DNA of 64,000 nt from a virus (lineage: Duplodnaviria > Heunggongvirae > Uroviricota > Caudoviricetes): IMG/VR virus record IMGVR_UViG_3300029610_000240. One strand, 5' to 3'. The position numbers and the translations under genes are program-made. Below are positions 32,468-59,932 of this stretch, one piece after another. Below the pieces are notes generated by a model that did not search any database, was not told where the DNA came from, and saw only the letters and a program-made list of their open reading frames with translations. How positions within the stretch are numbered: the first letter of the stretch is position 1; every line of letters begins with the position of its first letter.

Positions 32468-32904
32468 GGTACCACAATAAGAGGGAAATATGAAATAACA
32501 GGTGTTCTACTATGTAGAAAATATTATATTGTTTTAAATGAGAATGGGAAAGATCATACATTTGAGATTCCTAAAAGCCAATACAATTCAATAAAGCTGA
32601 ACAGTCGTGTATTGTGTAAGATAAATTATAAAGAAAATAAAATTACAAAAATTAAAATGATCGATAAATCAAGAATTTTATATAATCCTTTCGTTCAAAA
32701 ACTTAGATAACGTAACTATAAAGAGATTCATGATGATGACTTAATTGATGATTTAAGACAAAGTTTTAAAAATATGTAACAGATATATGTAAAAACAAAT
32801 GGCAGTTACATAATGCGTAAGAATAAGAATGTATCGAATAAGTCTATATAAGTAGAATCTACCAGGTGGTAGAAAATATTAAAACTAACAGGAGATAATA
32901 TTTC

Positions 32905-36085: not shown

Positions 36086-36133
36086 TAAACTTGTCTTTAA
36101 AAAGGAAATAATCATAATAGAAATGAACCAACT

Positions 36134-36279
36134 GTTTTGTAATCGTGTAAAAGCACTTAAATATGCTGTAGAAGATGTTTTGTTACTGTGCAACGGAAAT
36201 ATGTCTAAATGATTTAATTTATTACTACTTTTTATTCCTTTGTTTTGTAACCGTGTAACGGAGACATGTCTAAATGGTC
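36134..36279 (+). CRISPR. Mini CRISPR array U0: three 38-nt 'GTTTTGTAACCGTGTAACGGAGACATGTCTAAATGGTC'-type repeats (the first two degenerate) with one clear 27-nt spacer
   Basis: Repeats at 36134-36171, 36177-36214 and 36242-36279. Spacer 'taatttattactactttttattccttt' at 36215-36241. Confidence 0.6.
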
Positions 36280-36356
36280 AAATTATTTTGCACGGTGCGT
36301 AAAAATAAGAAATTATCGAATAGGCTCGTTAAAACGAGAGCTGCCGTGTGGCAGTA
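36280..36356 (+). ncRNA. tracrRNA-like module cognate to U0 (anti-repeat, 'AAAAATAAG' nexus, two hairpins)
   Basis: 'aaattattttgCACGGtgcgtaaaaataagaaattatcgaataggctcgttaaaacgagagctgccgtgtggcag'. CACGG pairs with the repeat's CCGTG. The nexus and hairpins are SpCas9-tracr-like. Confidence 0.6.
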
Positions 36357-36499
36357 AATCTAAGCTACATCAATTTCAAGATTATAATTTGGGAGGAGAA
36401 AATGTTTGGGAAAATTAATGTTTTTTATTTATTGTTGGCTATATATTTGTATTATTTGTTATATTCTTGCAGCCAAGAACAAGAAAGAAGGTGTAGTGT

Positions 36500-43600: not shown

Positions 43601-43802
43601 ATCTAAAAAAAGATAGTGTTTAATATTTTTAGACAGATTCATTGGATGTATAAGAAATGTAAATAATCATCCGTTATTATCCATATCATATACAAAATGT
43701 GTATTTTGTGTAAAATGTGTTAAAAACATAATTGCCACAAATGATGATATGTGATACAATTTCATGGTAACATATGAATTGCACTCTGATGCAACGTAGT
43801 AT

Positions 43803-43880
43803 GTGATAAAGTTATGCTCGCATGAGACGAGATCTGCCGGGTGGCAGAGGTAAAAAGGCCAGAGAATATCTGGTCTTTTT
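43803..43880 (+). ncRNA. Orphan tracrRNA-like module with no adjacent repeats, plus a terminator
   Basis: 'gtgataaagttatGCTCGcatgagaCGAGatCTGCCgggtGGCAG' has the same double-hairpin tail as the other tracr modules. The terminator 'aaaaaggccagagaatatctggtcttttt' follows. Confidence 0.45.
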
Positions 43881-44159
43881 ACTTAAAAATAGAGTATTAT
43901 TTATTAGCATTTTCTGATATAATATAAGCAGTGTTAGAGAGATATATGTAACACCATCGTTTATTAGAAAAGAATATACAGGGAAATTGCATCATTTTAT
44001 ACAATTTCTAAAGCGAGAGGTATTCATATATCTCTCGTTTTTTTTATGTGAAGAGTATTCGATTGAATGCTCTTTTTTCTTTGTAATAATCTAAACGATT
44101 TGTTACAGATCATCTCCTGGCATGAGTAACAAAAAGCTAATATGAAAGGAAGATGCTCT

Positions 44160-46126: not shown

Positions 46127-49100
46127 GTGCAGAATGGATTTTTAGGAATAACTGTTAGTAGTGAACAGGTTGGTTGGGCAGTTACAAATCCCAAATATGA
46201 GTTAGAACGTGCATCTCGAAAAGATTTATGGGGTGTAAGGCTTTTTGATAAAGCAGAAACAGCGGAAGATCGAAGAATGTTCCGTACAAACAGACGATTA
46301 AATCAGAGAAAAAAGAACAGAATACATTATCTTAGAGATATTTTCCATGAGGAAGTAAATCAAAAAGATCCTAACTTTTTTCAGCAATTAGATGAAAGCA
46401 ATTTCTGTGAAGATGATCGTACTGTAGAGTTTAATTTTGATACTAATCTTTATAAGAATCAGTTTCCAACAGTGTATCATTTAAGAAAATATCTAATGGA
46501 AACAAAAGATAAACCAGATATTCGTCTGGTATACTTAGCTTTTTCAAAATTTATGAAAAATCGAGGACATTTCTTATACAAAGGAAATCTTGGAGAGGTT
46601 ATGGACTTTGAAAATTCCATGAAAGGCTTTTGTGAAAGTTTAGAGAAATTTAATATTGACTTCCCTACATTATCAGATGAACAGGTAAAAGAAGTCCGAG
46701 ATATCTTATGTGATCATAAAATTGCTAAAACTGTGAAAAAGAAAAACATCATTACTATTACAAAAGTAAAAAGTAAGACAGCAAAAGCATGGATTGGACT
46801 GTTTTGTGGTTGCAGCGTTCCTGTTAAAGTATTATTTCAGGATATCGATGAAGAAATTGTAACGGATCCAGAAAAAATCTCATTTGAAGATGCTTCTTAT
46901 GATGATTGTATTGCAAATATTGAAAAGGGTGTCGGTATTTATTATGAAGCTATTGTTTCTGCAAAGATGCTTTTTGACTGGTCTATCCTGAATGAAATTT
47001 TAGGTGACCATCAGTTATTAAGTGATGCAATGATCGCAGAATACAATAAGCATCATGATGATTTAAAGCGTTTACAGAAGATCATTAAAGGAACTGGCAG
47101 TAGAGAATTATATCAGGATATCTTTATTAATGATGTTTCTGGAAATTATGTATGCTACGTTGGTCATGCAAAAACAATGAGTAGTGCAGATCAGAAACAG
47201 TTTTATACATTTTTAAAAAATCGATTAAAAAATGTGAATGGTATTTCATCAGAAGATGCAGAATGGATTGATACAGAGATTAAAAACGGTACTTTACTAC
47301 CAAAACAGACAAAACGTGATAACAGTGTTATTCCGCATCAATTACAGTTAAGGGAATTTGAATTAATTCTTGATAACATGCAGGAAATGTATCCATTCTT
47401 AAAAGAAAACAGAGAAAAATTATTAAAAATCTTCAATTTCGTTATTCCTTATTATGTAGGTCCGCTAAAGGGCGTTGTAAGAAAAGGAGAGAGTACAAAC
47501 TGGATGGTGCCTAAAAAAGATGGTGTGATTCATCCATGGAATTTCGATGAAATGGTAGACAAAGAAGCGTCTGCGGAATGTTTTATTTCCCGAATGACAG
47601 GAAATTGTAGTTATTTATTTAATGAAAAAGTTCTTCCAAAGAATTCTCTTCTTTATGAGACATTTGAGGTATTAAATGAGCTAAATCCATTAAAGATCAA
47701 TGGAGAACCTATCAGCGTGGAATTAAAACAGAGAATTTATGAACAGCTTTTCTTGACAGGGAAAAAAGTTACAAAAAAATCTCTGACAAAATATCTTATC
47801 AAGAATGGCTATGACAAAGATATTGAATTATCAGGTATTGATAATGAATTTCACAGCAATCTAAAATCTCATATTGATTTTGAGGATTACGATAATCTAT
47901 CTGATGAAGAAGTTGAACAGATTATTCTTAGAATTACAGTATTTGAAGATAAGCAGCTGTTAAAAGATTATTTAAATCGCGAGTTTGTAAAGCTCTCTGA
48001 GGATGAGAGAAAACAGATTTGCTCATTATCTTATAAAGGATGGGGAAACTTATCAGAAATGCTATTAAACGGTATTACTGTAACAGATTCCAATGGTGTA
48101 GAAGTTTCTGTAATGGATATGCTGTGGAATACAAACTTAAATCTGATGCAGATCTTAAGTAAGAAATATGGATATAAAGCAGAAATCGAACATTACAATA
48201 AAGAACATGAAAAAACCATTTATAATCGTGAAGATTTGATGGATTATTTAAATATTCCACCGGCTCAGCGTAGGAAGGTAAATCAGCTGATTACGATAGT
48301 AAAATCTCTCAAAAAGACATATGGAGTTCCAAATAAGATTTTCTTCAAAATAAGCAGAGAACATCAGGATGATCCAAAGAGAACTTCATCCAGAAAAGAA
48401 CAGCTAAAATATTTATACAAATCCTTAAAATCAGAAGATGAAAAACATCTTATGAAAGAGCTTGATGAATTGAACGATCATGAATTATCCAATGATAAAG
48501 TTTATCTTTATTTTCTACAGAAAGGACGCTGCATTTATTCTGGCAAGAAATTAAATCTTTCAAGATTAAGAAAATCTAATTATCAGAATGATATTGACTA
48601 CATTTATCCATTATCTGCAGTAAATGATCGTTCTATGAATAATAAGGTATTAACGGGAATCCAGGAGAATCGAGCAGACAAGTATACCTATTTTCCAGTT
48701 GATTCAGAAATTCAGAAAAAAATGAAGGGATTTTGGATGGAACTGGTTCTGCAGGGATTTATGACAAAGGAGAAATACTTCCGATTATCCAGAGAAAATG
48801 ATTTTTCAAAGAGCGAACTTGTTAGCTTTATTGAACGTGAAATTTCAGATAATCAGCAAAGTGGAAGAATGATTGCTTCTGTATTACAGTATTATTTCCC
48901 TGAATCAAAGATTGTATTTGTAAAAGAAAAGCTGATTTCTTCCTTTAAGAGGGATTTCCATTTAATTAGTAGTTATGGTCACAATCATTTACAAGCTGCA
49001 AAAGATGCTTATATTACGATTGTAGTTGGAAATGTATATCATACAAAATTTACAATGGACCCAGCAATCTATTTTAAGAATCATAAGAGAAAAGATTATG

Positions 49101-50065
49101 ATCTGAACCGATTATTCTTAGAAAATATCAGCAGAGATGGACAGATTGCATGGGAAAGTGGTCCATATGGGTCAATTCAGACGGTTCGAAAAGAATATGC
49201 TCAAAACCATATTGCTGTTACAAAAAGAGTCGTGGAAGTAAAAGGCGGCTTATTTAAGCAGATGCCATTAAAAAAAGGACATGGCGAATATCCATTAAAA
49301 ACCAATGATCCTAGATTTGGCAATATCGCACAGTATGGAGGGTATACGAATGTCACAGGTTCCTATTTTGTATTAGTAGAATCAATGGAGAAAGGGAAAA
49401 AACGTATTTCTTTAGAATATGTTCCAGTATATCTTCATGAGCGTTTAGAGGATGATCCTGGACATAAACTGTTAAAAGAATATCTGGTTGATCACAGAAA
49501 ACTTAATCATCCAAAGATTTTACTTGCAAAAGTAAGAAAAAACTCATTACTTAAGATTGACGGTTTTTATTATCGTTTAAATGGTCGAAGTGGAAATGCT
49601 CTTATCCTTACAAATGCAGTGGAATTGATCATGGATGACTGGCAGACAAAAACAGCAAACAAGATTTCTGGATACATGAAACGCAGAGCTATTGATAAGA
49701 AAGCAAGGGTTTATCAAAATGAATTCCATATTCAGGAATTAGAACAGCTTTATGATTTTTATTTAGATAAATTAGAGAATGGTGTTTATAAAAATCGTAA
49801 GAATAATCAGGCTGAATTAATTCACAACGAAAAAGAACAGTTTATGGAACTCAAGACAGAAGATCAGTGTGTATTATTGACTGAGATTAAAAAGCTTTTT
49901 GTATGTTCTCCAATGCAGGCAGACCTTACATTGATTGGTGGCAGCAAACACACAGGAATGATTGCTATGTCAAGCAATGTTACAAAAGCAGATTTTGCAG
50001 TCATTGCGGAAGATCCTTTAGGACTTAGAAACAAAGTAATTTATTCTCATAAAGGTGAGAAGTAA
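46127..50065 (+). CDS. cas9: Type II Cas9 homolog (1312 aa) with substituted catalytic residues in RuvC-I (Asp to Thr), RuvC-II (Glu to Lys) and HNH (His to Tyr); predicted nuclease-dead
   Basis: N-terminal 'FLGITVSSEQVGWAV' (compare 'IGLDIGTNSVGWAV'), 'TVYHLRKYL', 'DIRLVYLAFSKFMKNRGHFL'. RuvC-II 'KIFFKISREHQ' (compare 'NIVIEMARENQ'). HNH 'NDIDYIYPLSAVNDRSMNNKVL' (compare '[21 protein letters not shown]'). RuvC-III region 'SYGHNHLQAAKDAYI'. RBS 'aaggagg' before GTG 46127. Confidence 0.9.
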   Translation: MQNGFLGITVSSEQVGWAVTNPKYELERASRKDLWGVRLFDKAETAEDRRMFRTNRRLNQRKKNRIHYLRDIFHEEVNQKDPNFFQQLDESNFCEDDRTVEFNFDTNLYKNQFPTVYHLRKYLMETKDKPDIRLVYLAFSKFMKNRGHFLYKGNLGEVMDFENSMKGFCESLEKFNIDFPTLSDEQVKEVRDILCDHKIAKTVKKKNIITITKVKSKTAKAWIGLFCGCSVPVKVLFQDIDEEIVTDPEKISFEDASYDDCIANIEKGVGIYYEAIVSAKMLFDWSILNEILGDHQLLSDAMIAEYNKHHDDLKRLQKIIKGTGSRELYQDIFINDVSGNYVCYVGHAKTMSSADQKQFYTFLKNRLKNVNGISSEDAEWIDTEIKNGTLLPKQTKRDNSVIPHQLQLREFELILDNMQEMYPFLKENREKLLKIFNFVIPYYVGPLKGVVRKGESTNWMVPKKDGVIHPWNFDEMVDKEASAECFISRMTGNCSYLFNEKVLPKNSLLYETFEVLNELNPLKINGEPISVELKQRIYEQLFLTGKKVTKKSLTKYLIKNGYDKDIELSGIDNEFHSNLKSHIDFEDYDNLSDEEVEQIILRITVFEDKQLLKDYLNREFVKLSEDERKQICSLSYKGWGNLSEMLLNGITVTDSNGVEVSVMDMLWNTNLNLMQILSKKYGYKAEIEHYNKEHEKTIYNREDLMDYLNIPPAQRRKVNQLITIVKSLKKTYGVPNKIFFKISREHQDDPKRTSSRKEQLKYLYKSLKSEDEKHLMKELDELNDHELSNDKVYLYFLQKGRCIYSGKKLNLSRLRKSNYQNDIDYIYPLSAVNDRSMNNKVLTGIQENRADKYTYFPVDSEIQKKMKGFWMELVLQGFMTKEKYFRLSRENDFSKSELVSFIEREISDNQQSGRMIASVLQYYFPESKIVFVKEKLISSFKRDFHLISSYGHNHLQAAKDAYITIVVGNVYHTKFTMDPAIYFKNHKRKDYDLNRLFLENISRDGQIAWESGPYGSIQTVRKEYAQNHIAVTKRVVEVKGGLFKQMPLKKGHGEYPLKTNDPRFGNIAQYGGYTNVTGSYFVLVESMEKGKKRISLEYVPVYLHERLEDDPGHKLLKEYLVDHRKLNHPKILLAKVRKNSLLKIDGFYYRLNGRSGNALILTNAVELIMDDWQTKTANKISGYMKRRAIDKKARVYQNEFHIQELEQLYDFYLDKLENGVYKNRKNNQAELIHNEKEQFMELKTEDQCVLLTEIKKLFVCSPMQADLTLIGGSKHTGMIAMSSNVTKADFAVIAEDPLGLRNKVIYSHKGEK

Positions 50066-50106
50066 GTTTTCATATTTGTTCGGAAAATTCATAATCATAT
50101 CGAACG

Positions 50107-50259
50107 GCTTTGGAACTGCGTAGAACATGATATGTCTTATGGCTAAAAGAATTACAGGTGCATATTTTGAACTGTGTAAAACATGGCATATGGGAGAATT
50201 GGCAACGACTGGAACAGAACACAGTTTTGAAACTGTATAAAACATGACATGTCTTATGG
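50107..50259 (+). CRISPR. Mini CRISPR array U1: 3 repeats (consensus GTTTTGAAACTGTATAAAACATGACATGTCTTATGG) and 2 spacers (22 and 29 nt), immediately 3' of cas9
   Basis: Repeats at 50107-50142, 50165-50194 (degenerate) and 50224-50259. Spacers 'ctaaaagaattacaggtgcata' and 'agaattggcaacgactggaacagaacaca'. Confidence 0.7.
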
Positions 50260-50385
50260 TTCAAATTATTTATACAGTACGTGAAAATAAGAAATTATCG
50301 AATAAACTCGTTTAGACGAGAACTGCTAGAGGCAGTAATTGCAGAAAATGTCATGAACCCCAAGCGACTTCGTCGGCCGGGGGTT
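50260..50385 (+). ncRNA. tracrRNA-like module cognate to U1, plus a terminator
   Basis: 'ttcaaattatTTATACAGTacgtgaaaataagaaattatcgaataaactcgtttagacgagaactgctagaggcag'. TATACAGT is an exact complement of the repeat's ACTGTATA. Terminator 'ccccaagcgacttcgtcggccgggggttt'. Confidence 0.7.
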
Positions 50386-50448
50386 TACGCACCAATTTGA
50401 TAATATTTCTAATCATATATTACCTTATATGATTAATGGAGAAAATAG

Positions 50449-50598
50449 ATGTTTCAAGTAAAAAATAAAGAAACTGGGCAAGAATATACCGTATATGCTG
50501 TCGGGGATGAATATCTGACAAAATTTCTGATTTATGAAGATGGACATTGGAAATGGCAGACTATAGATGATTTTGTTCCAGTGATTGTAGATTAAGAA
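50449..50598 (+). CDS. Small protein (49 aa)
   Basis: RBS 'aatggagaaaatagatg'. Protein 'MFQVKNKETGQEYTVYAVGDEYLTKFLIYEDGHWKWQTIDDFVPVIVD'. Confidence 0.35.
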
Positions 50599-50612
50599 AG
50601 CGAGAAATTCAC

Positions 50613-50957
50613 ATGAAGATTACAAGAACGATTAAATTTAAAGAATATATCCTCGGATATTTAGAAAAATTAGAGGTTCATGAAGTTCGACGCATTGAAA
50701 AAGCCGGACGATTAAGCCGTGACATTATCAAAGAGGAATCTGAAAAATGCGGACACAAATTAATGATTCTTGATACGATTGAAAAAGAAAGACGTTATGA
50801 ATGTTCATTAGAAGATTTCTTATCCGTTGCAAGAGAGATTCCACTAAAAAATCAGGAGACTGTTAATACAGAAGAAAAAAATGTTCAGGAAGATAATTCA
50901 GAGGATTCTAAGTCTAAGTTAGGCGATTCTGACTGTGCCCCTTGGATTGAAGATTAA
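50613..50957 (+). CDS. hypothetical protein (114 aa) lying between guide modules U1 and U2
   Basis: ORF with RBS 'aagaaagcgagaaattcacatg'. Confidence 0.45.
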   Translation: MKITRTIKFKEYILGYLEKLEVHEVRRIEKAGRLSRDIIKEESEKCGHKLMILDTIEKERRYECSLEDFLSVAREIPLKNQETVNTEEKNVQEDNSEDSKSKLGDSDCAPWIED

Positions 50958-50958
50958 T

Positions 50959-51117
50959 GTTATTTTGAGAAATGATTGCAAATGTGATCGTAGCGTACCT
51001 TACTTCACAGCTTAGTTTTGGAACTATGTAAAATCAAATGATTGCAAATGGGCAGAGAGAAAATTTGAAAAATTGTCTGTGTTTTGGAACTATGTAAAAT
51101 CAAATGATTGCAAATGG
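50959..51117 (+). CRISPR. Mini CRISPR array U2: degenerate repeat plus 2 perfect 37-nt repeats 'GTTTTGGAACTATGTAAAATCAAATGATTGCAAATGG', with 2 spacers (28 and 29 nt)
   Basis: Repeats at 50959-50986 (3' half only), 51015-51051 and 51081-51117. Spacers 'atcgtagcgtaccttacttcacagctta' and 'gcagagagaaaatttgaaaaattgtctgt'. Confidence 0.75.
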
Positions 51118-51191
51118 TCAAAGTAATTGCATGGCGTGTAAAAATAAGAATTTATCGAAATAATTTGCTCCGGCGAAATCTGCAAGATGCA
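51118..51191 (+). ncRNA. tracrRNA-like module cognate to U2
   Basis: 'tcaaagtaattgCATGGcgtgtaaaaataagaatttatcgaaataatttgctccggcgaaatCTGCAagaTGCAG'. Confidence 0.65.
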
Positions 51192-51285
51192 GAAATCAAG
51201 CTGATCGATGCTTTACATATTTATCTATTTCAATATTTCTTCAACCATATACATTGATCAGCTTTAATAAAAAGAATTAAAATTA

Positions 51286-51446
51286 CGAAAATAAAATTGA
51301 ATGATTCCAATGGATAGTCGAAAAAGAATTGGATAGTCGACGGGTTTTAGAATAGTGTAAAATTGAATGATTCTAAGGGTTAGATACTCCACTAGATAGC
51401 AAAGTACTTGTTTTAGAATAGTGTAAAATTAAATGATTCTAAGGGG
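51286..51446 (+). CRISPR. Mini CRISPR array U3: degenerate repeat plus 2 repeats 'GTTTTAGAATAGTGTAAAATTGAATGATTCTAAGGG(G)', with 2 spacers (30-31 nt)
   Basis: Repeats at 51286-51313 (3' half), 51344-51379 and 51410-51446. Spacers 'atagtcgaaaaagaattggatagtcgacgg' and 'ttagatactccactagatagcaaagtactt'. Confidence 0.75.
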
Positions 51447-51527
51447 TCAAATAGATTCTATACAATGCGTGAAAATAAGAAACTTATCGAACAAACCTGT
51501 GTAGGAAACAGGAACTGCCGAGGGCAG
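51447..51527 (+). ncRNA. tracrRNA-like module cognate to U3
   Basis: 'tcaaatagATTCTAtacaatgcgtgaaaataagaaacttatcgaacaaaCCTGTgtaggaaACAGGaaCTGCCgagGGCAG'. ATTCTA pairs with the repeat's TAGAAT. Confidence 0.65.
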
Positions 51528-51575
51528 TAAAAATAAAAAGCATATTTTTATTATGTTTTATTTTATGATGAAGAG

Positions 51576-51794
51576 GTGGATGATGGTTCTATCTCTGTTT
51601 TTGAGAAAATGGATGCATTGCAAAATGCAACAATCTTAGAAGTACAAATACATATTGATGACTTAAAAGATAAATTGGAAGAAGTAAAATTTACTCTTAA
51701 AATATCAGGTTTGTATTTGAAGAAGATAATTTTATGGATTCTTATTATAAATCTTATACGTTACCGATTGTATATCACAAAAACTATTTATTAA
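51576..51794 (+). CDS. Small hypothetical protein (72 aa)
   Basis: ORF track only; weak. Confidence 0.25.
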   Translation: MDDGSISVFEKMDALQNATILEVQIHIDDLKDKLEEVKFTLKISGLYLKKIILWILIINLIRYRLYITKTIY

Positions 51795-51823
51795 GTATTA
51801 ACAATGATAAGGAATAACAATAA

Positions 51824-53755
51824 ATGGAAATAGATTACAGAAAAGAATTAAATAAGAGTCAATATGAAGCTGTTACAACGACAGAAGGACCAGTCCTAAT
51901 CCTTGCCGGTGCCGGAACTGGCAAAACTCGTTGTATGGTATATCGTGTGGCATATCTGATTGAAAAAGGCGTGTCACCCAATAATATCTTATTATTGACC
52001 TTTACAAATAAAGCAGCAAATGAAATGAAGCAAAGGGCAGCAGATATGCTTGATGAACGATGTAGTCAAATTACTGCATGTACATATCATTCATTCTGTG
52101 CAAAGATGCTTCGCAAATATTCACAACTGATTGGAATTCAATCAGATTATACAATTATTGATCCGGGAGATTGTGCAGATATCATATCGATCATCGAAAC
52201 AGAACACGGTATGGATAAAGTAAAAGATTTTCCAAGATCATCTCAACTGGTATCAGCACATAGCAAAGCCTTAAATACGAATCAGTCATTAGAGGATACT
52301 TTGTTTGATATGCTCGGTAAATGGAAGTATATGGAAATCGAAAGATTCATTCCAGATATAAAGAAAATCTTAGCGGATTATCAATCATACAAAAAACAAA
52401 ACAACATGATGGATTATGATGATTTGCTAATCAATTTTATATCTGTATTGAAAAGAAACCCTTCTATAAAGAATAAATTAGCTGATATTTATCAGTATAT
52501 TATGATCGACGAATATCAGGATTCTAATTATTTACAGGAAAAGATTATTTTTATGTTACGTGAAAAGAATCGTAACTTAGCAGTGGTAGGTGATGATTAC
52601 CAATGCATCTATGGATTTAGAGGAAGTATGGTAGAAAATATCATTAATTTTCCACAAAAGATGTCCGGATGTAAAGTTGTTTACTTAACACAGAATTATC
52701 GCAGCAATCAAGAGATCATGGATTTATCCAATATTGTTATGAAAAAACATTCACTGGAAGGTTTTTTTAAAAAGCTTGTCGCAACTCATGTGGCCAATAT
52801 TCAGCCATTGCTAGTTCGATCAGAGGACGAGGGCGAAGAAGCTTCTTATATTTTAAATAAGATTATGGCATTACATGATGAAGAAGAGATTCCGTATCAT
52901 GAAATTTGTGTTCTTGAAAGAAGTTCTTATCATTCTGTAAGACTAGAAGCACTTTTAAATAAAATGAAAATCCCATATGACAAATATGGTGGAATGAAGT
53001 TTTTTGATTATGATCATATCAAAAACTTCTTATGCTTTTTGCGATGTCAGATAAATCCACATGATGAAATTGCGTGGTTTCGACTATTAAAGTTATTTGA
53101 TGGTATTGGAAATGTTTATGCCAGAAATATCGCAGCAACATGTAAAACTCTTGGATTAGAGGGACTTGTTCAACACAAATACATAAAAAGAAAATTTCAG
53201 CCGGATCTTGAAAATTTAAAGAGTTTTATTGAAAAGCTTAATGATCAAGATTTTCAGATCGAATTGCAAAGCATTAAATCATTTTATTCACGTTTAATGG
53301 ACATTACATTAATGCTGATGAAAACATCGGAGAAGAAACGTAGGGAGCTTGCTAGAGCAAATAAACAAGCGGTCCGCGATTTTGATACACTGATTGAAAT
53401 GGCAGATGGATATGATTCTCCAGTGACATTTCTGGAAGAAATAATGCTTGAAGCCAGTCCTCAGAAAGAGGAAGAGGAAGATCGAATGGTTATATCTACA
53501 ATTCATTCCGCAAAAGGCTTAGAGTTTCACTCTGTTTTTGTTATGAACTGCGTAGATACAATGTTTCCATCTACAGATAAAGATCAGATTGGAACAGTAG
53601 AAGATAACGAAGAGTTGAGATGCTTCTATGTGGCAATAACACGGGCAAAAGAACGATTATTTTTAATGGCACCGAAATATATAGCCAAATTTGGATGTGT
53701 TGAAGAGGGAATTATCTCCCATTTTATTAGTGATGTTTTTCAAGTAAAGGAGTAA
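51824..53755 (+). CDS. UvrD/PcrA/Rep-family superfamily-1 DNA helicase
   Basis: Walker A 'ILAGAGTGKT'. Motif IV 'QNYRSNQEI'. Motif VI 'VISTIHSAKGLEFHSVFVM'. 'VGDDYQCIYGFRG' is motif III-like. Confidence 0.85.
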   Translation: MEIDYRKELNKSQYEAVTTTEGPVLILAGAGTGKTRCMVYRVAYLIEKGVSPNNILLLTFTNKAANEMKQRAADMLDERCSQITACTYHSFCAKMLRKYSQLIGIQSDYTIIDPGDCADIISIIETEHGMDKVKDFPRSSQLVSAHSKALNTNQSLEDTLFDMLGKWKYMEIERFIPDIKKILADYQSYKKQNNMMDYDDLLINFISVLKRNPSIKNKLADIYQYIMIDEYQDSNYLQEKIIFMLREKNRNLAVVGDDYQCIYGFRGSMVENIINFPQKMSGCKVVYLTQNYRSNQEIMDLSNIVMKKHSLEGFFKKLVATHVANIQPLLVRSEDEGEEASYILNKIMALHDEEEIPYHEICVLERSSYHSVRLEALLNKMKIPYDKYGGMKFFDYDHIKNFLCFLRCQINPHDEIAWFRLLKLFDGIGNVYARNIAATCKTLGLEGLVQHKYIKRKFQPDLENLKSFIEKLNDQDFQIELQSIKSFYSRLMDITLMLMKTSEKKRRELARANKQAVRDFDTLIEMADGYDSPVTFLEEIMLEASPQKEEEEDRMVISTIHSAKGLEFHSVFVMNCVDTMFPSTDKDQIGTVEDNEELRCFYVAITRAKERLFLMAPKYIAKFGCVEEGIISHFISDVFQVKE

Positions 53756-53789
53756 TTTATAGTGAAATGCTTAAATTATGTTGTCAATG

Positions 53790-53965
53790 TGGATTTGAAT
53801 CCATGTAAAAATGTAAAGCAAATGATTCCAAATGGCAATCTTCTCGAATTGTCGTGTAGGCAAAGTTTTGAAACCATGTAAAAAAATGATTCCAAATGGG
53901 TATGCATTGGTGTTTGAAGCGTTTGTGTGTTTTGGAACCATGTAAAAGCAAATGATTCCAAATGG
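53790..53965 (+). CRISPR. Mini CRISPR array U4: 3 repeats (consensus GTTTTGGAACCATGTAAAAGCAAATGATTCCAAATGG; first degenerate) and 2 spacers of 29 nt
   Basis: Repeats at about 53790-53835, 53865-53899 and 53929-53965. Spacers 'caatcttctcgaattgtcgtgtaggcaaa' and 'gtatgcattggtgtttgaagcgtttgtgt'. Confidence 0.75.
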
Positions 53966-54043
53966 TTAAAAGCAGATTACATGGTGTGTCAAAATAAGAA
54001 CTTATCGAATAGATCTATATAAATGGAATCTGCCAGGTGGCAG
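53966..54043 (+). ncRNA. tracrRNA-like module cognate to U4
   Basis: 'ttaaaagcagattaCATGGtgtgtcaaaataagaacttatcgaatagatctatataaatggaatCTGCCaggtGGCAG'. CATGG pairs with the repeat's CCATG. Confidence 0.65.
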
Positions 54044-54051
54044 AAAAAAAC

Positions 54052-54128
54052 TGAAAAAGCTGATCAATAATAACTGTTGTTACCATAATATTAATTTATG
54101 TTTTTGTATTTTGTCTATTGATCAGCTT
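54052..54128 (+). terminator. Long-stem terminator after module U4 (16-bp inverted repeat 'aaaaagctgatcaata ... tattgatcagcttttt')
   Basis: Inverted repeat at 54052-54067 and 54113-54128, followed by a T-run, directly upstream of the next gene. Confidence 0.5.
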
Positions 54129-54133
54129 TTTGC

Positions 54134-55411: not shown

Positions 55412-55537
55412 ATATCATCAAAGAGGTTTTGGTTAACTAAAGGTTGATTATCGGTATATCATTGTTCGGTGTCTGTAGACAGCATTTTTTCAAATCTATA
55501 GTTGTTATAAAATAAGAGACACTTTCATGTATAGTGG

Positions 55538-55594
55538 AGTTTAGTTTCAGAAGTTTATAAAAACAGATAACTATTAATGATTATCTGTTTCATG
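55538..55594 (+). repeat. Single extended CRISPR-like repeat of module U5 (related to the U6 repeat, carrying an internal palindrome AACAGATAA/TTATCTGTT)
   Basis: 'gtttagtttcagaagtttataaaaacagataactattaatgattatctgtttcatgg' against the U6 repeat 'gctttagaagtctataaaacagaatcattgtcaatgg'. Confidence 0.45.
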
Positions 55595-55658
55595 GATTGT
55601 GTAAAAATAAGCAAATTAGCGAATATGCTCGTTGAAACGAGAGCTGTTAGATAACAGC
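55595..55658 (+). ncRNA. tracrRNA-like module U5; the second hairpin is a variant (GCTGTTAGATAACAGC)
   Basis: 'attgtgtaaaaataagcaaattagcgaatatGCTCGttgaaaCGAGaGCTGTtagatAACAGC'. Confidence 0.5.
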
Positions 55659-55710
55659 TAAAAATGTAACTATATAAATTAATTTGTAAATTATAGGGAG
55701 GACTATTTTA

Positions 55711-56091: not shown

Positions 56092-56250
56092 GATACAGAA
56101 GAATCATTGTCGATGTTAAACATATTATGTGAAACATTATTGTCAGGCTTTAGAAGTCTATAAAACAGAATCATTGTCAATGAGATCAAATTCTTTATGA
56201 CAACGCAATACAGCTTTAGAAGTCTATAAAACAGAATCATTGTCAATGGT
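56091..56250 (+). CRISPR. Mini CRISPR array U6: degenerate repeat plus 2 repeats 'GCTTTAGAAGTCTATAAAACAGAATCATTGTCAATGG', with 2 spacers of 30 nt
   Basis: Repeats at 56091-56116 (3' half), 56147-56183 and 56214-56250. Spacers 'ttaaacatattatgtgaaacattattgtca' and 'agatcaaattctttatgacaacgcaataca'. Confidence 0.75.
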
Positions 56251-56325
56251 CAAATAAGCAGACTGCGTAAAAATAAGAATTTTATCGATATTGCTCGTGT
56301 AGTCGAGAACTGCCAAGTGGCAGCA
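56251..56325 (+). ncRNA. tracrRNA-like module cognate to U6
   Basis: 'tcaaataagcAGACTgcgtaaaaataagaattttatcgatattGCTCGtgtagtCGAGaaCTGCCaagtGGCAG'. AGACT pairs with the repeat's AGTCT. Confidence 0.65.
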
Positions 56326-56352
56326 ACATTTATAATAAAAAGGAGGAATTAT

Positions 56353-57006
56353 ATGCGAAAACAAGTTTTTGCAACGATTGGTTGTGCTATCTTTTTACTG
56401 ATCGTAGTAGGTTTCCTGATGATGGCATATTCTTCTTATACAAAACATCAAGAGGAAATTGCTGAACAAAAATTAATAAAGCAGGAAAGAAAAGAATCAC
56501 GAAAAACACTTCAATCATCAGAAGAAAGGGAATGGAATCTGGACTGCCTGTGGGAGCATGTTATCGAAATTGATGGTACAGAAATTGAAGTACCAATTAA
56601 ATACAATGATCTGATCAAGACACTTGGAAACAAAGTGAAAGAAGCTAAAGATAAAAAAATCATGCTACAAAATGGACAGGTTTTATGGCTGAATTGTACA
56701 AAAGATGAAAAAGACTCTATGAATAATGGAAAAGATAAAGCAATGGTTTATGGTATATCTACACAACAGGACGCTAAAGATTCTTGTGTTACAATTCAGA
56801 AAATCAAAACTGGAATGTCTTATGATAAATTAAAGGAATATTATGAGACTCCAGTTACGAAAGATGATTCCCAAAGTATTTCTGTACTGCAATATGCTGA
56901 TCCGAAATCTGATTTAGATATCACACAGCAGAATGTGACTGTTTATCTGGATAACAATACAGTGGTTGGATTAGGTATATATTATGACGGAAGTAAGGAG
57001 GAATAG
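56353..57006 (+). CDS. Membrane-anchored extracytoplasmic protein (N-terminal TM)
   Basis: RBS 'aaaaggaggaattatatg'. Anchor 'ATIGCAIFLLIVVGFLMMAY'. Confidence 0.5.
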   Translation: MRKQVFATIGCAIFLLIVVGFLMMAYSSYTKHQEEIAEQKLIKQERKESRKTLQSSEEREWNLDCLWEHVIEIDGTEIEVPIKYNDLIKTLGNKVKEAKDKKIMLQNGQVLWLNCTKDEKDSMNNGKDKAMVYGISTQQDAKDSCVTIQKIKTGMSYDKLKEYYETPVTKDDSQSISVLQYADPKSDLDITQQNVTVYLDNNTVVGLGIYYDGSKEE

Positions 57007-57007
57007 G

Positions 57008-57238
57008 ATGGAAAATAAAAATAAACCAAACCAAGAATTATTAACTATTAAAGAAACGGCAAAATTATTAAAAGTAAATCCACATAGAGTATATGACTTA
57101 GTGAGAATGGGAATTTTGCCAGCACTAAAATTAGGAAGCCTGAAAATACGAAGACAGGCATTAAATGAATTCCTTGAAGAATATGAAGGGATGGATCTGA
57201 CAGATTTAAATGAGATCAAAAAATTAGAAGTTAAATAA
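57008..57238 (+). CDS. xis: Excisionase/HTH_17-like DNA-binding protein
   Basis: RBS 'aaggaggaataggatg'. 'LLTIKETAKLLKVNPHRVYDLVRMGILPALKLG' is the Xis/MerR-type HTH. Confidence 0.65.
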   Translation: MENKNKPNQELLTIKETAKLLKVNPHRVYDLVRMGILPALKLGSLKIRRQALNEFLEEYEGMDLTDLNEIKKLEVK

Positions 57239-57660
57239 AAAGGAGCTGTTATGTCGGGATAATCTGATATAATAGCTCTTTTTTTGTAGCAAATTCTAAA
57301 TACTAATTAACAAATTAACTATATTATAAAGGATAATTTGATGATGGTAAATAATGAAGTCCCACGTCAGGCCCACGGAGAGTGCGGCACGAATAAGCAC
57401 GTATATGCATAATATACATAAAAATAGCATGCGTGATACGTTCTGGTTGTGAAAAATATACGAAAAAAGCACAAAATAACACGATATAACATAGGTAGTC
57501 ATTCGCAGTTGGGTTGGGTAACAACCCAATGGTAGGAGCTACAGTAGCTGTAGCTGTATCTATTGAGGAAGCTGCTAAAGCAGGTAAATTCTAGGAAACC
57601 ACGTATTTAAGCGGTTTTTTGAGGGTGTTAGAAGTGGTAAAAAGTAGTGAAATGTAGACA

Positions 57661-57706
57661 ATCTCTATATTATCTCTACACTATCTCTATACCACATCTC
57701 TACACT
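57661..57706 (+). repeat. Four direct copies of ATCTCTA(C/T)A between xis and the int 3' end; candidate arm-type recombinase binding sites
   Basis: 'atctctatattatctctacactatctctataccacatctctacac'. Confidence 0.5.
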
Positions 57707-57769
57707 CAAAAATGTGAATAAGAAGAGAGAGCCAATTAATTTTGACTCTCTTTTTTTCTTCGTTTTATT

Positions 57770-59011
57770 TTATTTTATTTTCATGATCTCGGCCATTAGC
57801 CACTCTGGTTTTCGTTTTGTGTAAGTAGCTTCTGTGATATCGTTGATCTTGTGACCCATCATATATTTTAATGCATATTCATCTACTTTATCTCTTTTTG
57901 CCATCGTGGAAAACTGAATCCTTGGATCATGAGCTCTGTGATCTGGATTGAGCTCTAATTTCTTAACAATCTTTTCGAATCGATGTCTATATTTATCATA
58001 CGTCATTTTTAAGCTACTTCGGTGTGTTTTTGTATCAGTGCAGTTGATTAAATAATCACTTCCAAGATTTATTGCTTCCTGGTATCGATGCTTGACTAGA
58101 TCACGAATCCGTGGATGGATTGGAACCAAGCGATCTTTACCTGCGTCAGTCTTCATACCGCCGATAAAAAACCAATTTTCCAGATCTACATTTTTTAATT
58201 CAATTAGACCCAATTCTTGTGGTCGCCATCCAGAGTAGCATTGGATCAGAATCACATCCACATAATCAGTATCATACAAATGATCCCATAATTTTTTTAT
58301 TTCTTCATCCGTAAAATCAATATGGTCCTTCTTCGCTTCTTTAACATCTTTAATAACATCATCAGACAAATTAAAGGTCCTTGCATAATTCTTGTCTACT
58401 AATTCATACTCTAGCGCATAATCCAACATTAAGTTGAATAGAGATTTTATCTTTGTCTTTGTAGTAGGAGATGCGTGTTTTTCTTTACCATCGACTACAT
58501 ACGTTCCATCTTCCATACAACCTTTAATATGTCGGGCACGTAAATCTTTTGCACGCATATCATAAACAGCAGAGCAGTAGTTCCAGGCAGATTTAATTGT
58601 ACGTTCACTTGAAGGACTTGACAGGGATTCAAAATATTTATCAGTCCACTTTTCGTATAATTGCTCGACTGTCAGATCAGAGTCAAGATCATACGGATTT
58701 TTATGATATTCAAGTAATGCAGCGTAAGCATCATTATAGGTTTTGAAATATGTTTCTGGTTTCAATGATTTATAAATAGGTTTTCCATAAAAATTTTTTC
58801 CAACACAGACTAATGCACGAAAAGGCTTTCTAAGATTTTGATTTTTTAATTCGGATATAGTGCCAAATCCATTTGGAAGACGTTTTCGTTTATTAGTTTT
58901 TCTTTGTTGTTGTTTAATAACTTTTGTATCTAGAGGATAACCGCAGTGAGGACAAGTTATTGCCTTATCACTTACCTGCAATTGACATTCTGGACATTTG
59001 ATCAGTGCCAT
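57770..59011 (-). CDS. int: Tyrosine recombinase/integrase with an N-terminal zinc-ribbon
   Basis: C-terminal catalytic region 'RAHDPRIQFSTMAKRDKVDEYALKYMMGHKINDITEATYTKR' (R...HxxR...Y). N-terminal 'CPECQLQVSDKAITCPHCG'. Confidence 0.85.
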   Translation of the reverse strand: MALIKCPECQLQVSDKAITCPHCGYPLDTKVIKQQQRKTNKRKRLPNGFGTISELKNQNLRKPFRALVCVGKNFYGKPIYKSLKPETYFKTYNDAYAALLEYHKNPYDLDSDLTVEQLYEKWTDKYFESLSSPSSERTIKSAWNYCSAVYDMRAKDLRARHIKGCMEDGTYVVDGKEKHASPTTKTKIKSLFNLMLDYALEYELVDKNYARTFNLSDDVIKDVKEAKKDHIDFTDEEIKKLWDHLYDTDYVDVILIQCYSGWRPQELGLIELKNVDLENWFFIGGMKTDAGKDRLVPIHPRIRDLVKHRYQEAINLGSDYLINCTDTKTHRSSLKMTYDKYRHRFEKIVKKLELNPDHRAHDPRIQFSTMAKRDKVDEYALKYMMGHKINDITEATYTKRKPEWLMAEIMKIK

Positions 59012-59177
59012 ATATCATCATTCCTTTCTAAAAAAGGGTACAAAAAATACACCCTTATCAATTTGTAATTTTGCAGGATGTATGATATAATTCTGGTGTT
59101 CAGGCAGAGATTACATCAATCACCCATGATTGATAATTTCTGAAATTCCGTCCAGTTGGTAGCTGGGCGGTTTTCTT

Positions 59178-59864: not shown

Positions 59865-59932
59865 TTCTCCTTCTTTATTTTAATAATAAAAACGACAATT
59901 CGAGATTATATCCCATTAAGTCATTTAGATAA

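What the first reader, a model, noticed from the sequence alone, without database searches (positions are those of the whole stretch)
50959..51191. Repeats are internally self-complementary and each final spacer-repeat is fused to the tracr in cis, giving a natural single-guide-like layout
Within every repeat the 5' half is partly complementary to its own 3' half. In U4, TTTGGAACCATG faces ATGATTCCAAATGG. In U3, TTTTAGAAT faces ATTCTAAGG. The tracr anti-repeat looks like a diverged copy of the repeat 3' half: 'aaatgattgcaaatgg' in the repeat against 'aagtaattgcatggcg' in the tracr. The last spacer plus last repeat plus tracr would be made as one transcript of sgRNA-like topology (spacer, repeat, loop, anti-repeat, nexus, hairpins). 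That would need neither RNase III nor a trans-encoded tracr. This also hints at how the modules may have arisen, by repeat duplication.
Basis: inference. Interest (0 to 1): 0.7.

Follow-up and report, generated by a model that had tools for sequence, protein, structure and literature searches.

The report
CRISPR mini-arrays fused to their tracrRNA
A mobile element that carries a nuclease-dead Cas9 also carries at least eight small guide-RNA genes, and in each one the last CRISPR spacer and repeat run straight into their own matching tracrRNA scaffold, so the layout resembles the engineered single-guide RNA.

Summary
The core observation holds. Window 50970-51195 is a two-spacer CRISPR mini-array. 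Its last repeat is followed after 9 nt by a short anti-repeat, a nexus and two hairpins. That scaffold is the orphan Rfam motif RAGATH-30.

Eight such modules lie on the + strand around a Cas9 gene. The same layout recurs in every related element examined. Repeat and anti-repeat covary module by module: 86% of cells are paired and no shuffle out of 500 reached this. The sgRNA-like fold in cis is the minimum-energy structure in 17 of 20 modules.

The anti-repeat covers only about 16-18 nt. The trans duplex is worth -4 to -17 kcal/mol, against -31 in the nearest bacterial II-A system, which has a separate tracr gene. This favours action in cis.

The claim of repeat self-complementarity is weak. 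It holds for U3 and U4 only, not for U2, and shows no covariation. The idea that the anti-repeat is a copy of the repeat's 3' half does not generalise (p = 0.13).

The Cas9 is catalytically dead in both nuclease domains, and this is conserved under purifying selection. Arrays grow at the tracr-proximal end. One spacer matches other viral contigs 30/30.

Transcript ends were not tested.

The parts
46127..50065 (+). Cas9 gene, 1312 aa, with II-A-like architecture and both nuclease active sites mutated (a natural dCas9).
   Evidence: Pfam matches Cas9_REC (1.5e-138), Cas9_PI (2e-57), the bridge helix and HNH_4. Alignment to SpCas9 and to relatives gives D10->T, E762->K, H983->A and HNH H840->Y. 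dN/dS is 0.16 and about 0.09.
50970..50984 (+). U2: truncated first repeat (3' half only). It starts 13 nt after the stop codon of ORF 50613-50957.
   Evidence: Repeat family D4. The same '3' half only' first repeat occurs in U3, M56267, L047, L052 and L185.
50985..51014 (+). U2 spacer 1 (the older one).
   Evidence: It has a 30/30 protospacer in IMGVR_UViG_3300029819_000255 and 29/30 matches in three other viral contigs, inside a PemK/MazF-like gene. The 3' flank is AGAAGTT. It is the only spacer of the orthologous module in L181.
51015..51051 (+). U2 internal repeat, 37 nt.
51052..51080 (+). U2 spacer 2. It is tracr-proximal and the newest, and would be the guide of the cis single-guide fold.
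   Evidence: It is absent from the L181, L001 and L002 orthologues. The same spacer sits in the tracr-proximal position of an array with a different repeat in L185.
51081..51117 (+). U2 last repeat. Nucleotides 1-17 pair with the anti-repeat.
51118..51126 (+). Linker TCAAAGTAA. TCAAA(T/G) is conserved after the last repeat of most modules. Its reverse complement resembles ATTTGAG, the leader end of the bacterial relative.
   Evidence: Alignment A2. L054 leader-repeat junction.
51127..51145 (+). Truncated anti-repeat: upper-stem strand 51127-51134, bulge 51135-51138, lower-stem strand 51139-51145.
   Evidence: Minimum-energy and centroid fold. Covariation.
51146..51195 (+). tracr scaffold: nexus (AAGAATTTATCGAAATA), hairpin 1 (51164-51177) and hairpin 2 (51179-51193). 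No U-tract follows.
   Evidence: Rfam RAGATH-30, 71.9 bits. Nine of 11 hairpin pairs show compensatory changes.
50107..50341 (+). Module U1: two degenerate repeats, the last repeat (50224-50259) and the fused tracr.
51292..51533 (+). Module U3: half repeat, two spacers, two repeats and the fused tracr.
53793..54049 (+). Module U4: degenerate repeats, the last repeat (53929-53965) and the fused tracr.
   Evidence: z = -3.1.
32763..32878 (+). Single-repeat module M32817 (guide, repeat, tracr).
36124..36360 (+). Module M36299: degenerate repeats, the last repeat (36242-36277) and the fused tracr.
55518..55663 (+). Compact single-guide gene M55601. It has one repeat whose upper stem closes on a loop of about 9 nt. 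An extended -10 box (TGTTATAAA, 55503-55511) lies about 26 nt upstream of the repeat.
   Evidence: z = -2.4. Identical sequence in L001 and L002. A matching R1 hit of the same score (79.8 bits) occurs in L181 at 18939-19006.
56095..56329 (+). Module M56267: half repeat, two spacers, two repeats and the fused tracr.

Best explanation
The region is one of at least eight guide-RNA modules that serve a nuclease-dead, II-A-derived Cas9 on an integrated mobile element.

Layout. Each module is a very short CRISPR array of 0-5 spacers, read on the + strand. Its last repeat is joined by a 5-11 nt linker to a cognate, truncated anti-repeat (about 16-18 nt). The Cas9 scaffold follows: a nexus and two hairpins, which together are Rfam RAGATH-30.

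Proposed mechanism. If array and scaffold are transcribed together, the newest spacer, the first 17 nt of the last repeat and the scaffold fold on themselves into a single-guide-like RNA. The rest of the repeat plus the linker forms a loop of about 30 nt.
- This RNA would load dCas9 with no intermolecular tracr pairing and no RNase III cut in a long repeat:anti-repeat duplex.
- dCas9 would then bind DNA of competing mobile elements without cutting it.
- New spacers enter at the tracr-proximal repeat, so the newest spacer always gets the scaffold in cis.
- The number of guides grows by multiplying modules, not by lengthening arrays.

Shown here: the layout, its conservation, the pairing and its covariation, weak pairing in trans, the dead active sites, the polarity of spacer turnover, and one protospacer.

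Inferred: co-transcription, processing, loading into dCas9, and interference by binding alone.
For: Layout and fold:
- Eight RAGATH-30 hits lie on the + strand, each directly after a repeat.
- The sgRNA-like fold is the minimum-energy structure in 17 of 20 modules. It is also the centroid for U2, U3 and U4.
- Repeat and anti-repeat covary: 86.3% of cells paired, and 0 of 500 shuffles reach the observed values.
- The same fusion occurs in all relatives examined, including those with a dCas9 only 73% identical and a different repeat family.

Cis rather than trans:
- The nearest bacterial relatives have a separate tracr gene upstream of cas9. It has its own promoter, a 34-nt anti-repeat and a U-tract terminator.
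- The trans duplex is worth -31.3 kcal/mol there, against -4.4 to -16.9 kcal/mol here.
- Single-repeat modules exist, and M55601 has a promoter-like box about 26 nt upstream of its repeat.
- No other tracr candidate pairs with the repeats.

The protein:
- The dCas9 substitutions are conserved across a clade 71-100% identical. One sub-clade has lost the HNH domain.
- dN/dS is 0.09-0.16.

The arrays are live:
- Tracr-proximal spacers differ between near-identical elements, while 5' spacers are shared.
- One spacer has a 30/30 protospacer in other viral contigs.
Against: - There are no transcript data, so the ends and any processing are unknown.
- Hairpin 2 is followed by A-runs, not a U-tract. 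Several modules abut the next gene's ribosome-binding site, so transcripts may be polycistronic and need cutting.
- Arrays with 3-5 spacers exist. Their upstream spacers cannot use the cis scaffold unless tracr also acts in trans.
- In L052_6191 the penultimate repeat pairs better than the last one.
- Three of 20 modules do not give the sgRNA fold as the minimum-energy structure.
- The fold z-score for U2 itself is only -1.4.
- The adjacency could be kept for spacer integration (a leader-like linker) and not for folding.
- Only one of the six spacers scanned against the public collections has a clear protospacer. In that case the guide equals the coding strand, which is the weaker orientation for blocking elongation (and knowledge of CRISPRi).
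Confidence: 0.6

Rival explanations
1. Canonical dual-RNA mode. The tracr part is released, or made from its own promoter, and pairs in trans with any repeat. It sits next to the array only because the genome is compact, or because it lies in the leader where spacers are integrated.
For: - Multi-spacer arrays exist.
- In L052_6191 the penultimate repeat pairs better than the last one.
- The linker TCAAAT is the reverse complement of a leader end like that of the bacterial relative (ATTTGAG). This gives a reason for the adjacency that lies in the DNA, not in the RNA.
- Some repeats contain a TAAAAT box that could act as a -10 element.
Against: - The trans duplex is worth only -4.4 to -16.9 kcal/mol, about the same as non-cognate or shuffled partners for U2, U3 and M56267. 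The bacterial relative reaches -31.3.
- The TAAAAT box is not conserved: other repeats have TAAAAG, TAAAAC or TAACGG.
- There is no room for a conserved promoter, because the -35 position would fall in the variable spacer.
- Having many modules with 1-2 spacers each fits a rule of one guide per scaffold.
Confidence: 0.27
2. Decoys or hijackers. The modules are viral sgRNA or Racr-like RNAs aimed at the host's active Cas9, either to sequester it or to re-direct it, and are not guides for the element's own dCas9.
For: - Phage-encoded sgRNA mimics that inhibit Cas9 were reported in 2026 (bioRxiv 10.64898/2026.06.01.729453 and 10.64898/2026.06.03.729762).
- The scaffold resembles that of the bacterial II-A relatives.
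- No cas1, cas2 or csn2 is present in the window, so a host II-A system is probably involved anyway.
Against: - The modules cluster downstream of the element's own Cas9 in all relatives, and that protein is under purifying selection.
- Full-length 29-30 nt spacers turn over, and one matches other mobile elements. The published vsgRNAs instead carry a short guide against the cas9 promoter.
- No seed match of 10 nt or more to the region upstream of cas9 was found.
Confidence: 0.08
3. Antisense reading. The arrays are transcribed from the tracr side on the minus strand. The tracr 5' region, which resembles the repeat's 3' half, then pairs with the antisense repeat.
For: - The 5' region of the U2-U4 tracr resembles the repeat's 3' half.
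- The acquisition end is on the tracr side.
Against: - The similarity is not general (p = 0.13).
- This geometry would leave about 10 unpaired nt between the duplex and the nexus. The + strand model instead reproduces the canonical GUUUU:AAAAU-AAG junction and shows covariation.
- All flanking genes and the scaffold itself are on the + strand.
Confidence: 0.03
4. Decaying relics with no function.
For: The upstream repeats are degenerate or truncated.
Against: There is covariation, conservation across elements, recent spacer gain and purifying selection on dCas9.
Confidence: 0.02

Closest known systems
Canonical type II-A CRISPR-Cas9 (nearest relatives: Clostridium sp. and Lachnospiraceae MAG loci L054 and L055; S. 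pyogenes type)
   Same: The Cas9 has REC, bridge-helix and PI domains. Repeats are 36-37 nt of the GTTT type, and spacers are 29-30 nt. The scaffold has a lower stem, bulge, upper stem, nexus and hairpins. Spacers match mobile elements.
   Different: - The Cas9 is about 42% identical and nuclease-dead.
- No cas1, cas2 or csn2 is present in the window.
- The tracr is not a separate gene upstream of cas9. It is fused after each of many mini-arrays.
- The anti-repeat is 16-18 nt instead of about 34 nt.
- There is no U-tract terminator.
- The degenerate repeat and the old spacers lie at the 5' end, and growth is at the 3' (tracr) end.
tracr-L, the natural single guide of S. pyogenes (bioRxiv 10.1101/2020.05.21.102756; described)
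   Same: It is one natural RNA in which a guide and a repeat-like segment fold back on the tracr anti-repeat through a large loop.
   Different: - tracr-L is a long form of a stand-alone tracr.
- It carries a fixed 11-13 nt guide that represses the cas9 promoter, and it works with an active Cas9.
- Here the guide is a full, exchangeable CRISPR spacer at the end of an array.
- No match to the region upstream of cas9 was found.
Viral sgRNAs and rAcrIIA1 (bioRxiv 10.64898/2026.06.01.729453 and 10.64898/2026.06.03.729762)
   Same: They are compact RNAs with crRNA-tracrRNA chimera architecture, encoded on mobile elements. M55601 in the window looks much like one.
   Different: - Those RNAs are decoys or repressors of the host Cas9.
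- They sit next to acr genes, in phages that lack a Cas9.
- Here there are arrays with spacer turnover, next to the element's own dCas9.
Phage II-C Cas9 with a dead RuvC domain plus a phage tracrRNA (Altae-Tran et al. 2023, PMC10910872)
   Same: A Cas9 encoded on a mobile element, with inactivated nuclease chemistry, its own tracr and a neighbouring helicase.
   Different: That system is II-C, has an active HNH domain, an SNF2 helicase and no arrays, and is proposed to sequester host crRNAs. Here the Cas9 is II-A-like, the HNH histidine is tyrosine or the whole domain is deleted, a UvrD-type helicase is the neighbour, and there are many arrays.
Rfam RAGATH-30 (RF03055)
   Same: All eight scaffolds match above the gathering score.
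   Different: Rfam types it 'Gene; sRNA'. No paper in the searchable library mentions it. The model covers only the lower-strand, nexus and hairpins part, not the anti-repeat or the repeat.
Neisseria and Campylobacter type II-C arrays (from memory, not tested here)
   Same: As I recall, crRNAs there mature without RNase III, and the arrays are read towards the end where spacers are acquired.
   Different: As I recall, each of those repeats carries its own promoter and the tracr is a separate gene. No conserved promoter is seen in the repeats here.
Naturally nuclease-dead RNA-guided DNA binders (TldR, bioRxiv 10.1101/2023.11.30.569447; Cas12c, bioRxiv 10.1101/2021.12.06.471469)
   Same: RNA-guided binding without cleavage, used for repression or defence, sometimes encoded on mobile elements.
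   Different: They belong to other protein families (TnpB and Cas12). No Cas9-based example with arrays was found in the library.

Membership tests
Type II (II-A-like) CRISPR-Cas | A Cas9 effector with REC lobe, bridge helix and PAM-interacting domain. | tested here: met
   Pfam gives Cas9_REC at 1.5e-138, Cas9_PI at 2e-57 and Cas9-BH at 1e-10. The best PDB match is a Cas9 at 7e-216.
Type II (II-A-like) CRISPR-Cas | Catalytic RuvC residues (D10, E762, H983, D986) and HNH residue (H840). | tested here: not met
   D10->T, E762->K, H983->A and H840->Y; only D986 and N863 are kept. The substitutions are conserved in the clade, and some members have lost the HNH domain.
Type II (II-A-like) CRISPR-Cas | An adaptation module (cas1, cas2, csn2) next to cas9. 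| tested here: not met
   tblastn with Cas1, Cas2 and Csn2 of the nearest bacterial relative finds nothing in the window or in the 53 related loci. The flanking ORFs are peptidases and a UvrD helicase. The rest of the roughly 200-kb contig was not fully checked.
Type II (II-A-like) CRISPR-Cas | A CRISPR array of about 36-nt repeats and about 30-nt spacers, with spacers derived from mobile elements. | tested here: met
   The period is 66 nt. Spacers differ between near-identical elements. One spacer has a 30/30 protospacer.
Type II (II-A-like) CRISPR-Cas | A tracrRNA whose anti-repeat pairs with the repeat, followed by a nexus and hairpins. | tested here: met
   Covariation of repeat with anti-repeat and in the hairpins. 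The scaffold is homologous to the bacterial relative's tracr.
Rfam RAGATH-30 (RF03055) | A covariance-model score above the gathering threshold of 59.5 bits. | tested here: met
   Eight hits of 64.7-78.6 bits.
Natural single-guide RNA (tracr-L / vsgRNA kind) | Guide, repeat segment, loop, anti-repeat and scaffold are contiguous on one strand. | tested here: met
   This holds for all 8 window modules and for more than 15 in relatives.
Natural single-guide RNA (tracr-L / vsgRNA kind) | It is made and used as one RNA molecule. | not testable with these tools
   This needs RACE, RNA-seq or RIP. The only indirect support is weak pairing in trans and a promoter-like box before M55601.
Natural single-guide RNA (tracr-L / vsgRNA kind) | A short guide (11-14 nt) that matches the cas9 promoter. 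| tested here: not met
   No seed match of 10 nt or more from any module guide occurs elsewhere in the window, apart from one AT-rich 13-mer inside ORF 11325-12146.
vsgRNA / Racr anti-CRISPR | Encoded on an element without its own effector, next to acr genes. | tested here: not met
   The element's own Cas9 lies directly upstream. No acr family was searched for specifically.
Phage II-C RuvC-dead Cas9 (Altae-Tran 2023) | II-C Cas9, active HNH domain, SNF2 helicase, no array. | tested here: not met
   The Cas9 has II-A-type REC and PI domains, its HNH histidine is tyrosine, the neighbouring helicase is UvrD-type, and arrays are present.

The most novel reading that the evidence does not exclude
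A lineage of mobile elements has turned type II-A CRISPR into a cleavage-free, self-updating targeting system built from three features.
- A conserved natural dCas9, which in some members has lost the HNH domain altogether.
- Many dispersed 'single-guide genes', in which the tracr sits in the leader position, so each newly acquired spacer is automatically expressed as a natural sgRNA.
- Arrays that are read from the trailer end towards the leader end and begin with a half repeat. That half repeat cannot produce a self-targeting guide from the upstream gene.

On this reading the system silences or blocks competing phages and mobile elements by binding alone. The orphan Rfam motif RAGATH-30 would be its tracr scaffold.
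Probability: 0.4. Interest if true: 0.9.

Novelty: new variant of a known kind. Interest (0 to 1): 0.8.

Why it matters
If this holds, the single-guide RNA topology was not only engineered in 2012. It was also not only evolved as a regulatory or anti-CRISPR decoy (tracr-L, vsgRNA). It would exist in nature as the standard output of an adaptive CRISPR array.

The finding would also do the following:
- Give a function to an orphan Rfam family, RAGATH-30.
- Reveal a widespread natural dCas9. The cluster of the window's protein has 2780 member sequences.
- Provide a compact natural scaffold, with a 16-18 nt anti-repeat, for guide design.
- Make several questions testable: how spacers are prioritised, how the direction of integration is set by the leader-repeat junction, and how interference by binding alone works between mobile elements.

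Tried and rejected
- Megablast of 46127-54100 against GenBank phages found no match.
- About 45 concatenated spacers searched against GenBank phages found no match.
The R1 covariance model gave only three weak hits (26.8-30.9 bits; E 0.0009-0.007) and no clear tracr module, so host taxonomy stays unresolved.
- Literature searches for RAGATH-30, for a natural or phage dCas9 and for an array-fused tracr found nothing that describes this layout.
- The anti-repeat as a copy of the repeat's 3' half is rejected as a general rule.
- The repeat hairpin as a conserved RNA structure shows no covariation.
- The apical mini-hairpin between the repeat's TGATTC and the linker's GGTCA is 75% paired, but the support is weak.
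- Self-targets of the guides within the window are unconvincing. M36299's spacer matches 26019-26042 at 22 of 24 positions but lacks the PAM-proximal seed. The only seed match is one AT-rich 13-mer.
- The stand-alone sRNA at 43757-43885 was tested as a hidden tracr acting in trans. Its complementarity to the repeats is no better than shuffled sequence.
- The sigma-70 and terminator consensus scan was uninformative: 18 promoter-like sites against 20.8 expected.
- Three other spacers searched in IMG/VR matched only their own arrays, and a fourth matched nothing at all.
Full report
**What is at the coordinates**

Window 50959-51191 covers one small CRISPR module, which I call U2.
- It begins 13 nt after the stop codon of ORF 50613-50957 with a truncated repeat. 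Only the 3' half is present (AAATGATTGCAAATG, 50970-50984).
- A 30-nt spacer follows (50985-51014), then a 37-nt repeat (51015-51051), a 29-nt spacer (51052-51080) and the last repeat (51081-51117).
- After the last repeat come a 9-nt linker, the sequence TTGCATGG-CGTG-TAAAAAT, an AAGAATTTATCGAA nexus and two hairpins that end near 51195.

An Rfam search at gathering thresholds assigns 51138-51195 to RAGATH-30 (RF03055). It finds seven more copies, all on the + strand: 32817, 36299, 50281, 51469, 53988, 55601 and 56267. A covariance model built from them finds no further strong copy in the window.

ORF 46127-50065, directly upstream of four of the modules, is a Cas9 with SpCas9-type REC, bridge-helix, HNH and PAM-interacting domains.

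**Is the tracr really fused in cis, beyond chance?**

Every RAGATH-30 copy is preceded by a GTTTT-type repeat. Folding 'last repeat + scaffold' gives the same architecture each time.
- A lower stem, GUUUU:AAAAU, abuts the AAG of the nexus. This is the canonical Cas9 geometry.
- A bulge follows, then an upper stem of 5-9 bp.
- The loop of about 30 nt is made of the rest of the repeat plus the linker.
- This fold is the minimum-energy structure in 17 of 20 non-redundant modules from the window and from related contigs. It is both the minimum-energy and the centroid fold for U2, U3 and U4. Against shuffled sequence the z-scores are -1.4, -2.7 and -3.1.

The upper stem differs between modules and changes on both strands together. 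Examples are CCGUG/CACGG, CUGUAUA/UAUACAG and ACCAUGUAA/UUACAUGGU.

On an alignment of 19 modules, the repeat:anti-repeat structure gives these counts:
- 86.3% of cells are paired.
- 20 cells are changed on both sides, against 7.0 +/- 2.2 in shuffles (0 of 500 shuffles reach the observed value).
- Registers slid by 1-3 columns give 34-46%.

The two 3' hairpins also covary: 9 of 11 pairs show compensatory changes.

The layout recurs in all relatives examined:
- six further IMG/VR contigs;
- an element whose Cas9 has lost the HNH domain (L181);
- an element whose Cas9 is only 73% identical (L182), where the upper stem reaches 14 bp;
- a metagenome contig with a different repeat family (L185).

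The linker is always short, at 5-11 nt.

**Comparison with the nearest canonical systems**

The closest Cas9s with intact active sites are about 42% identical. They come from Clostridium, Lachnospiraceae and Muribaculaceae MAGs and sit in ordinary cas9-cas1-cas2-csn2-array loci.

In L054 the arrangement is as follows:
- The tracr is a separate gene upstream of cas9.
- It has a TTGCAT-17-TATAAT promoter, an anti-repeat of about 34 nt and a U-tract terminator.
- The array has its leader (...ATTTGAG) at the 5' end and its degenerate repeat at the 3' end.

The computed repeat:tracr duplex is -31.3 kcal/mol there. The eight window modules reach only -4.4 to -16.9 kcal/mol as bimolecular duplexes. 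For U2, U3 and M56267 this is no better than non-cognate or shuffled partners. An anti-repeat this short should work mainly when it is tethered to the repeat. This is the strongest indirect argument for the single-guide reading.

The general organisation points the same way. There are many modules with one or two spacers each, instead of one long array with one tracr.

Two window modules have a single repeat (M32817 and M55601). M55601 closes the repeat:anti-repeat stem on a loop of about 9 nt. It has an extended -10 box (TGTTATAAA) placed so that transcription would start about 26 nt before the repeat. This is in effect an sgRNA gene.

**What is not confirmed**

The claim that every repeat is self-complementary does not hold.
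- Only the U3 and U4 repeats fold end to end, and only marginally: -4.6 and -7.8 kcal/mol, z about -1.7.
- The U2 repeat, inside the given coordinates, does not. Neither do the repeats of U1, M36299 and M56267.
- Across modules the proposed hairpin is 73.7% paired but does not exceed column shuffles (345 of 500).
- The bacterial relative's repeat has stronger inverted termini (-8.2 kcal/mol, z = -3.9).
- From memory, inverted repeat ends are a known feature of II-A repeats and are used by the Cas1-Cas2 integrase at the DNA level. I read the self-complementarity here as a weakened remnant of that, not as an RNA structure.

The idea that the anti-repeat is a diverged copy of the repeat's 3' half rests on U2, U3 and U4.
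- Their Smith-Waterman scores are 15.5-20.5, against 9.8 +/- 2.4 for shuffled sequence.
- These three modules are neighbours and related to each other.
- Over 19 modules, cognate pairs are no more similar than non-cognate pairs (p = 0.13).

(a) The Cas9 is catalytically dead.
- D10->T, E762->K, H983->A and HNH H840->Y.
- The same substitutions occur throughout a clade 71-100% identical. A sub-clade of 1151-1159 aa has deleted the HNH domain. Relatives at 42% identity keep all the catalytic residues.
- dN/dS is 0.16 and about 0.09, so the protein is maintained by selection.

(b) The arrays are live, and they grow at the tracr end.
- Elements whose Cas9 is 98-100% identical carry different tracr-proximal spacers but share the 5' ones.
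- The L181 orthologue of U2 has only spacer 1 fused to the tracr. The window has one extra unit inserted on the tracr side.
- The degenerate or half repeats lie at the 5' end.
- The conserved linker TCAAAT is the reverse complement of ATTTGA, and so resembles the bacterial leader end.
- I infer that the tracr occupies the leader position, and that the newest spacer is always the one joined to the scaffold.
- No Cas1, Cas2 or Csn2 homologue is present in the window or in the related loci. A host II-A adaptation module probably does the integration. This is inference.

(c) Targets.
- U2 spacer 1 matches four other viral contigs at 30/30 or 29/30. The match lies inside a PemK/MazF-like gene next to a DUF2800 nuclease gene, and the 3' flank is AGAAGTT.
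- The newest U2 spacer also occurs in a different repeat family, again next to the tracr, in L185. It has a 3'-anchored 24/29 match (22 nt of it contiguous), flanked by TGAAAAC, in L184.
- An NGAA PAM is possible, but it rests on only two cases.

**Context**

- Only IMG/VR labels the element as viral. The window's Cas9 is 100% identical to that of IMGVR_UViG_3300029328_000184.
- Near its right end the window has an Xis-like HTH gene, followed by chromosomal-looking genes. L181 ends with a Tn916-type Xis and Int.
- No phage structural gene was seen among the ORFs I annotated.
- I therefore call it an integrated mobile element.

**Mechanism, rivals and novelty**

The best-supported reading is a natural single-guide output for the newest spacer, loaded into a DNA-binding-only Cas9 that acts against competing mobile elements.

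Co-transcription, processing and loading remain inferred.
- Hairpin 2 lacks a U-tract.
- Several modules run into the next gene's ribosome-binding site, so a nuclease is still likely to be needed to free the RNA.
- Upstream spacers would need pairing in trans.

The main rival is an ordinary dual-RNA mode in which the adjacency is kept for integration. The decoy, antisense and relic readings fit the data worse.

Natural single guides are known: tracr-L, and the 2026 vsgRNA and rAcrIIA1 preprints. A phage Cas9 with a dead RuvC domain is also known. I found no description of array-terminal tracr fusions, of a doubly dead II-A-type Cas9 lineage, or of RAGATH-30 as a tracr. I therefore rate this as a new variant of a known kind.

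Noticed in passing
window 46127-50065; P0001-P0021: The Cas9 is nuclease-dead in both domains: D10T, E762K, H983A and H840Y. This is conserved across a clade 71-100% identical, and dN/dS is 0.09-0.16. The cluster of the window's protein has 2780 member sequences.
   Followed up: yes
P0003-P0018; L181 10001-13471: A sub-clade of this dCas9 (1151-1159 aa, 96-99% identical elsewhere) has deleted the whole HNH domain. It still has the same set of fused modules downstream.
   Followed up: partly
window 50970-51117 vs L181 ~14380-14470, L001 and L002; L046 vs L047: Arrays grow at the tracr-proximal end. The 5' spacers are shared and the tracr-side spacers are unique. The linker after the last repeat (TCAAAT) is the reverse complement of a leader end like that of the bacterial relative (ATTTGAG).
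   Followed up: partly
window 50970-50984, 51292-51313, 56095-56117; L047 ~150-165; L185: Arrays start, often right after the stop codon of the upstream ORF, with only the 3' half of a repeat. Such a repeat cannot pair with the tracr. It may therefore prevent a self-targeting guide from being made out of the upstream gene's end.
   Followed up: no
window 51052-51080 and L185 (OIZW01005003.1) ~622-650: The identical 29-nt spacer sits in the tracr-proximal position of arrays with two different repeat families, in two elements. Either both acquired it independently from the same invader, or the spacer was exchanged.
   Followed up: partly
window 55503-55663: M55601 is a compact sgRNA-like gene. 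It has an extended -10 box about 26 nt before a single repeat, and the repeat:anti-repeat stem is closed by a loop of about 9 nt. The guide is identical in L001 and L002, and L181 has a matching R1 hit of the same score at 18939-19006. No target was found.
   Followed up: partly
window 43757-43885 (also L181 ~7672, L182 ~3218): A stand-alone small RNA gene lies 2.3 kb upstream of cas9. It has its own extended -10 promoter and a strong terminator, and shares the two 3' hairpins of the tracr scaffold (R1, 24.9 bits). It has no anti-repeat and only a shortened nexus.
   Followed up: partly
window 51824-53755: A UvrD/PcrA-type helicase gene is embedded between modules U3 and U4. It is kept in L181 but absent from the L182 relative.
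   Followed up: partly
window 51198-51264 and 54056-54132: Downstream of U2 and U4 there is a long inverted repeat, (AAA)AAGCTGATC...GATCAGCTT(TTT), with a loop of about 50 nt and a T-run. It could be the real terminator of these modules.
   Followed up: no
window 19765-21319 and 23580-24698: The same element carries an IscB gene (RRXRR + HNH) with its HEARO/omega RNA (Rfam, 112 bits) and a TnpB (OrfB_IS605) gene. Three kinds of RNA-guided protein therefore lie within 30 kb.
   Followed up: no
window 56984-63808; L181 20290-23471: The right end of the element looks integrative: an Xis-like HTH gene, with a Tn916-type Int in L181, followed by chromosomal-type genes. The IMG/VR 'viral' label may be wrong, and this could be an integrative conjugative element or a prophage.
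   Followed up: partly
L182 8640-8700; L047 ~8150-8190: In the first module after cas9 in some relatives, the place of the spacer is taken by tandem units of about 15 nt that resemble the 5' half of a repeat (GGTTTTTTATCCATG). The meaning is unknown.
   Followed up: no
window 13979-16359: The element carries a restriction-modification pair: an Eco57I-like methylase and a BsuBI/PstI-type endonuclease.
   Followed up: no
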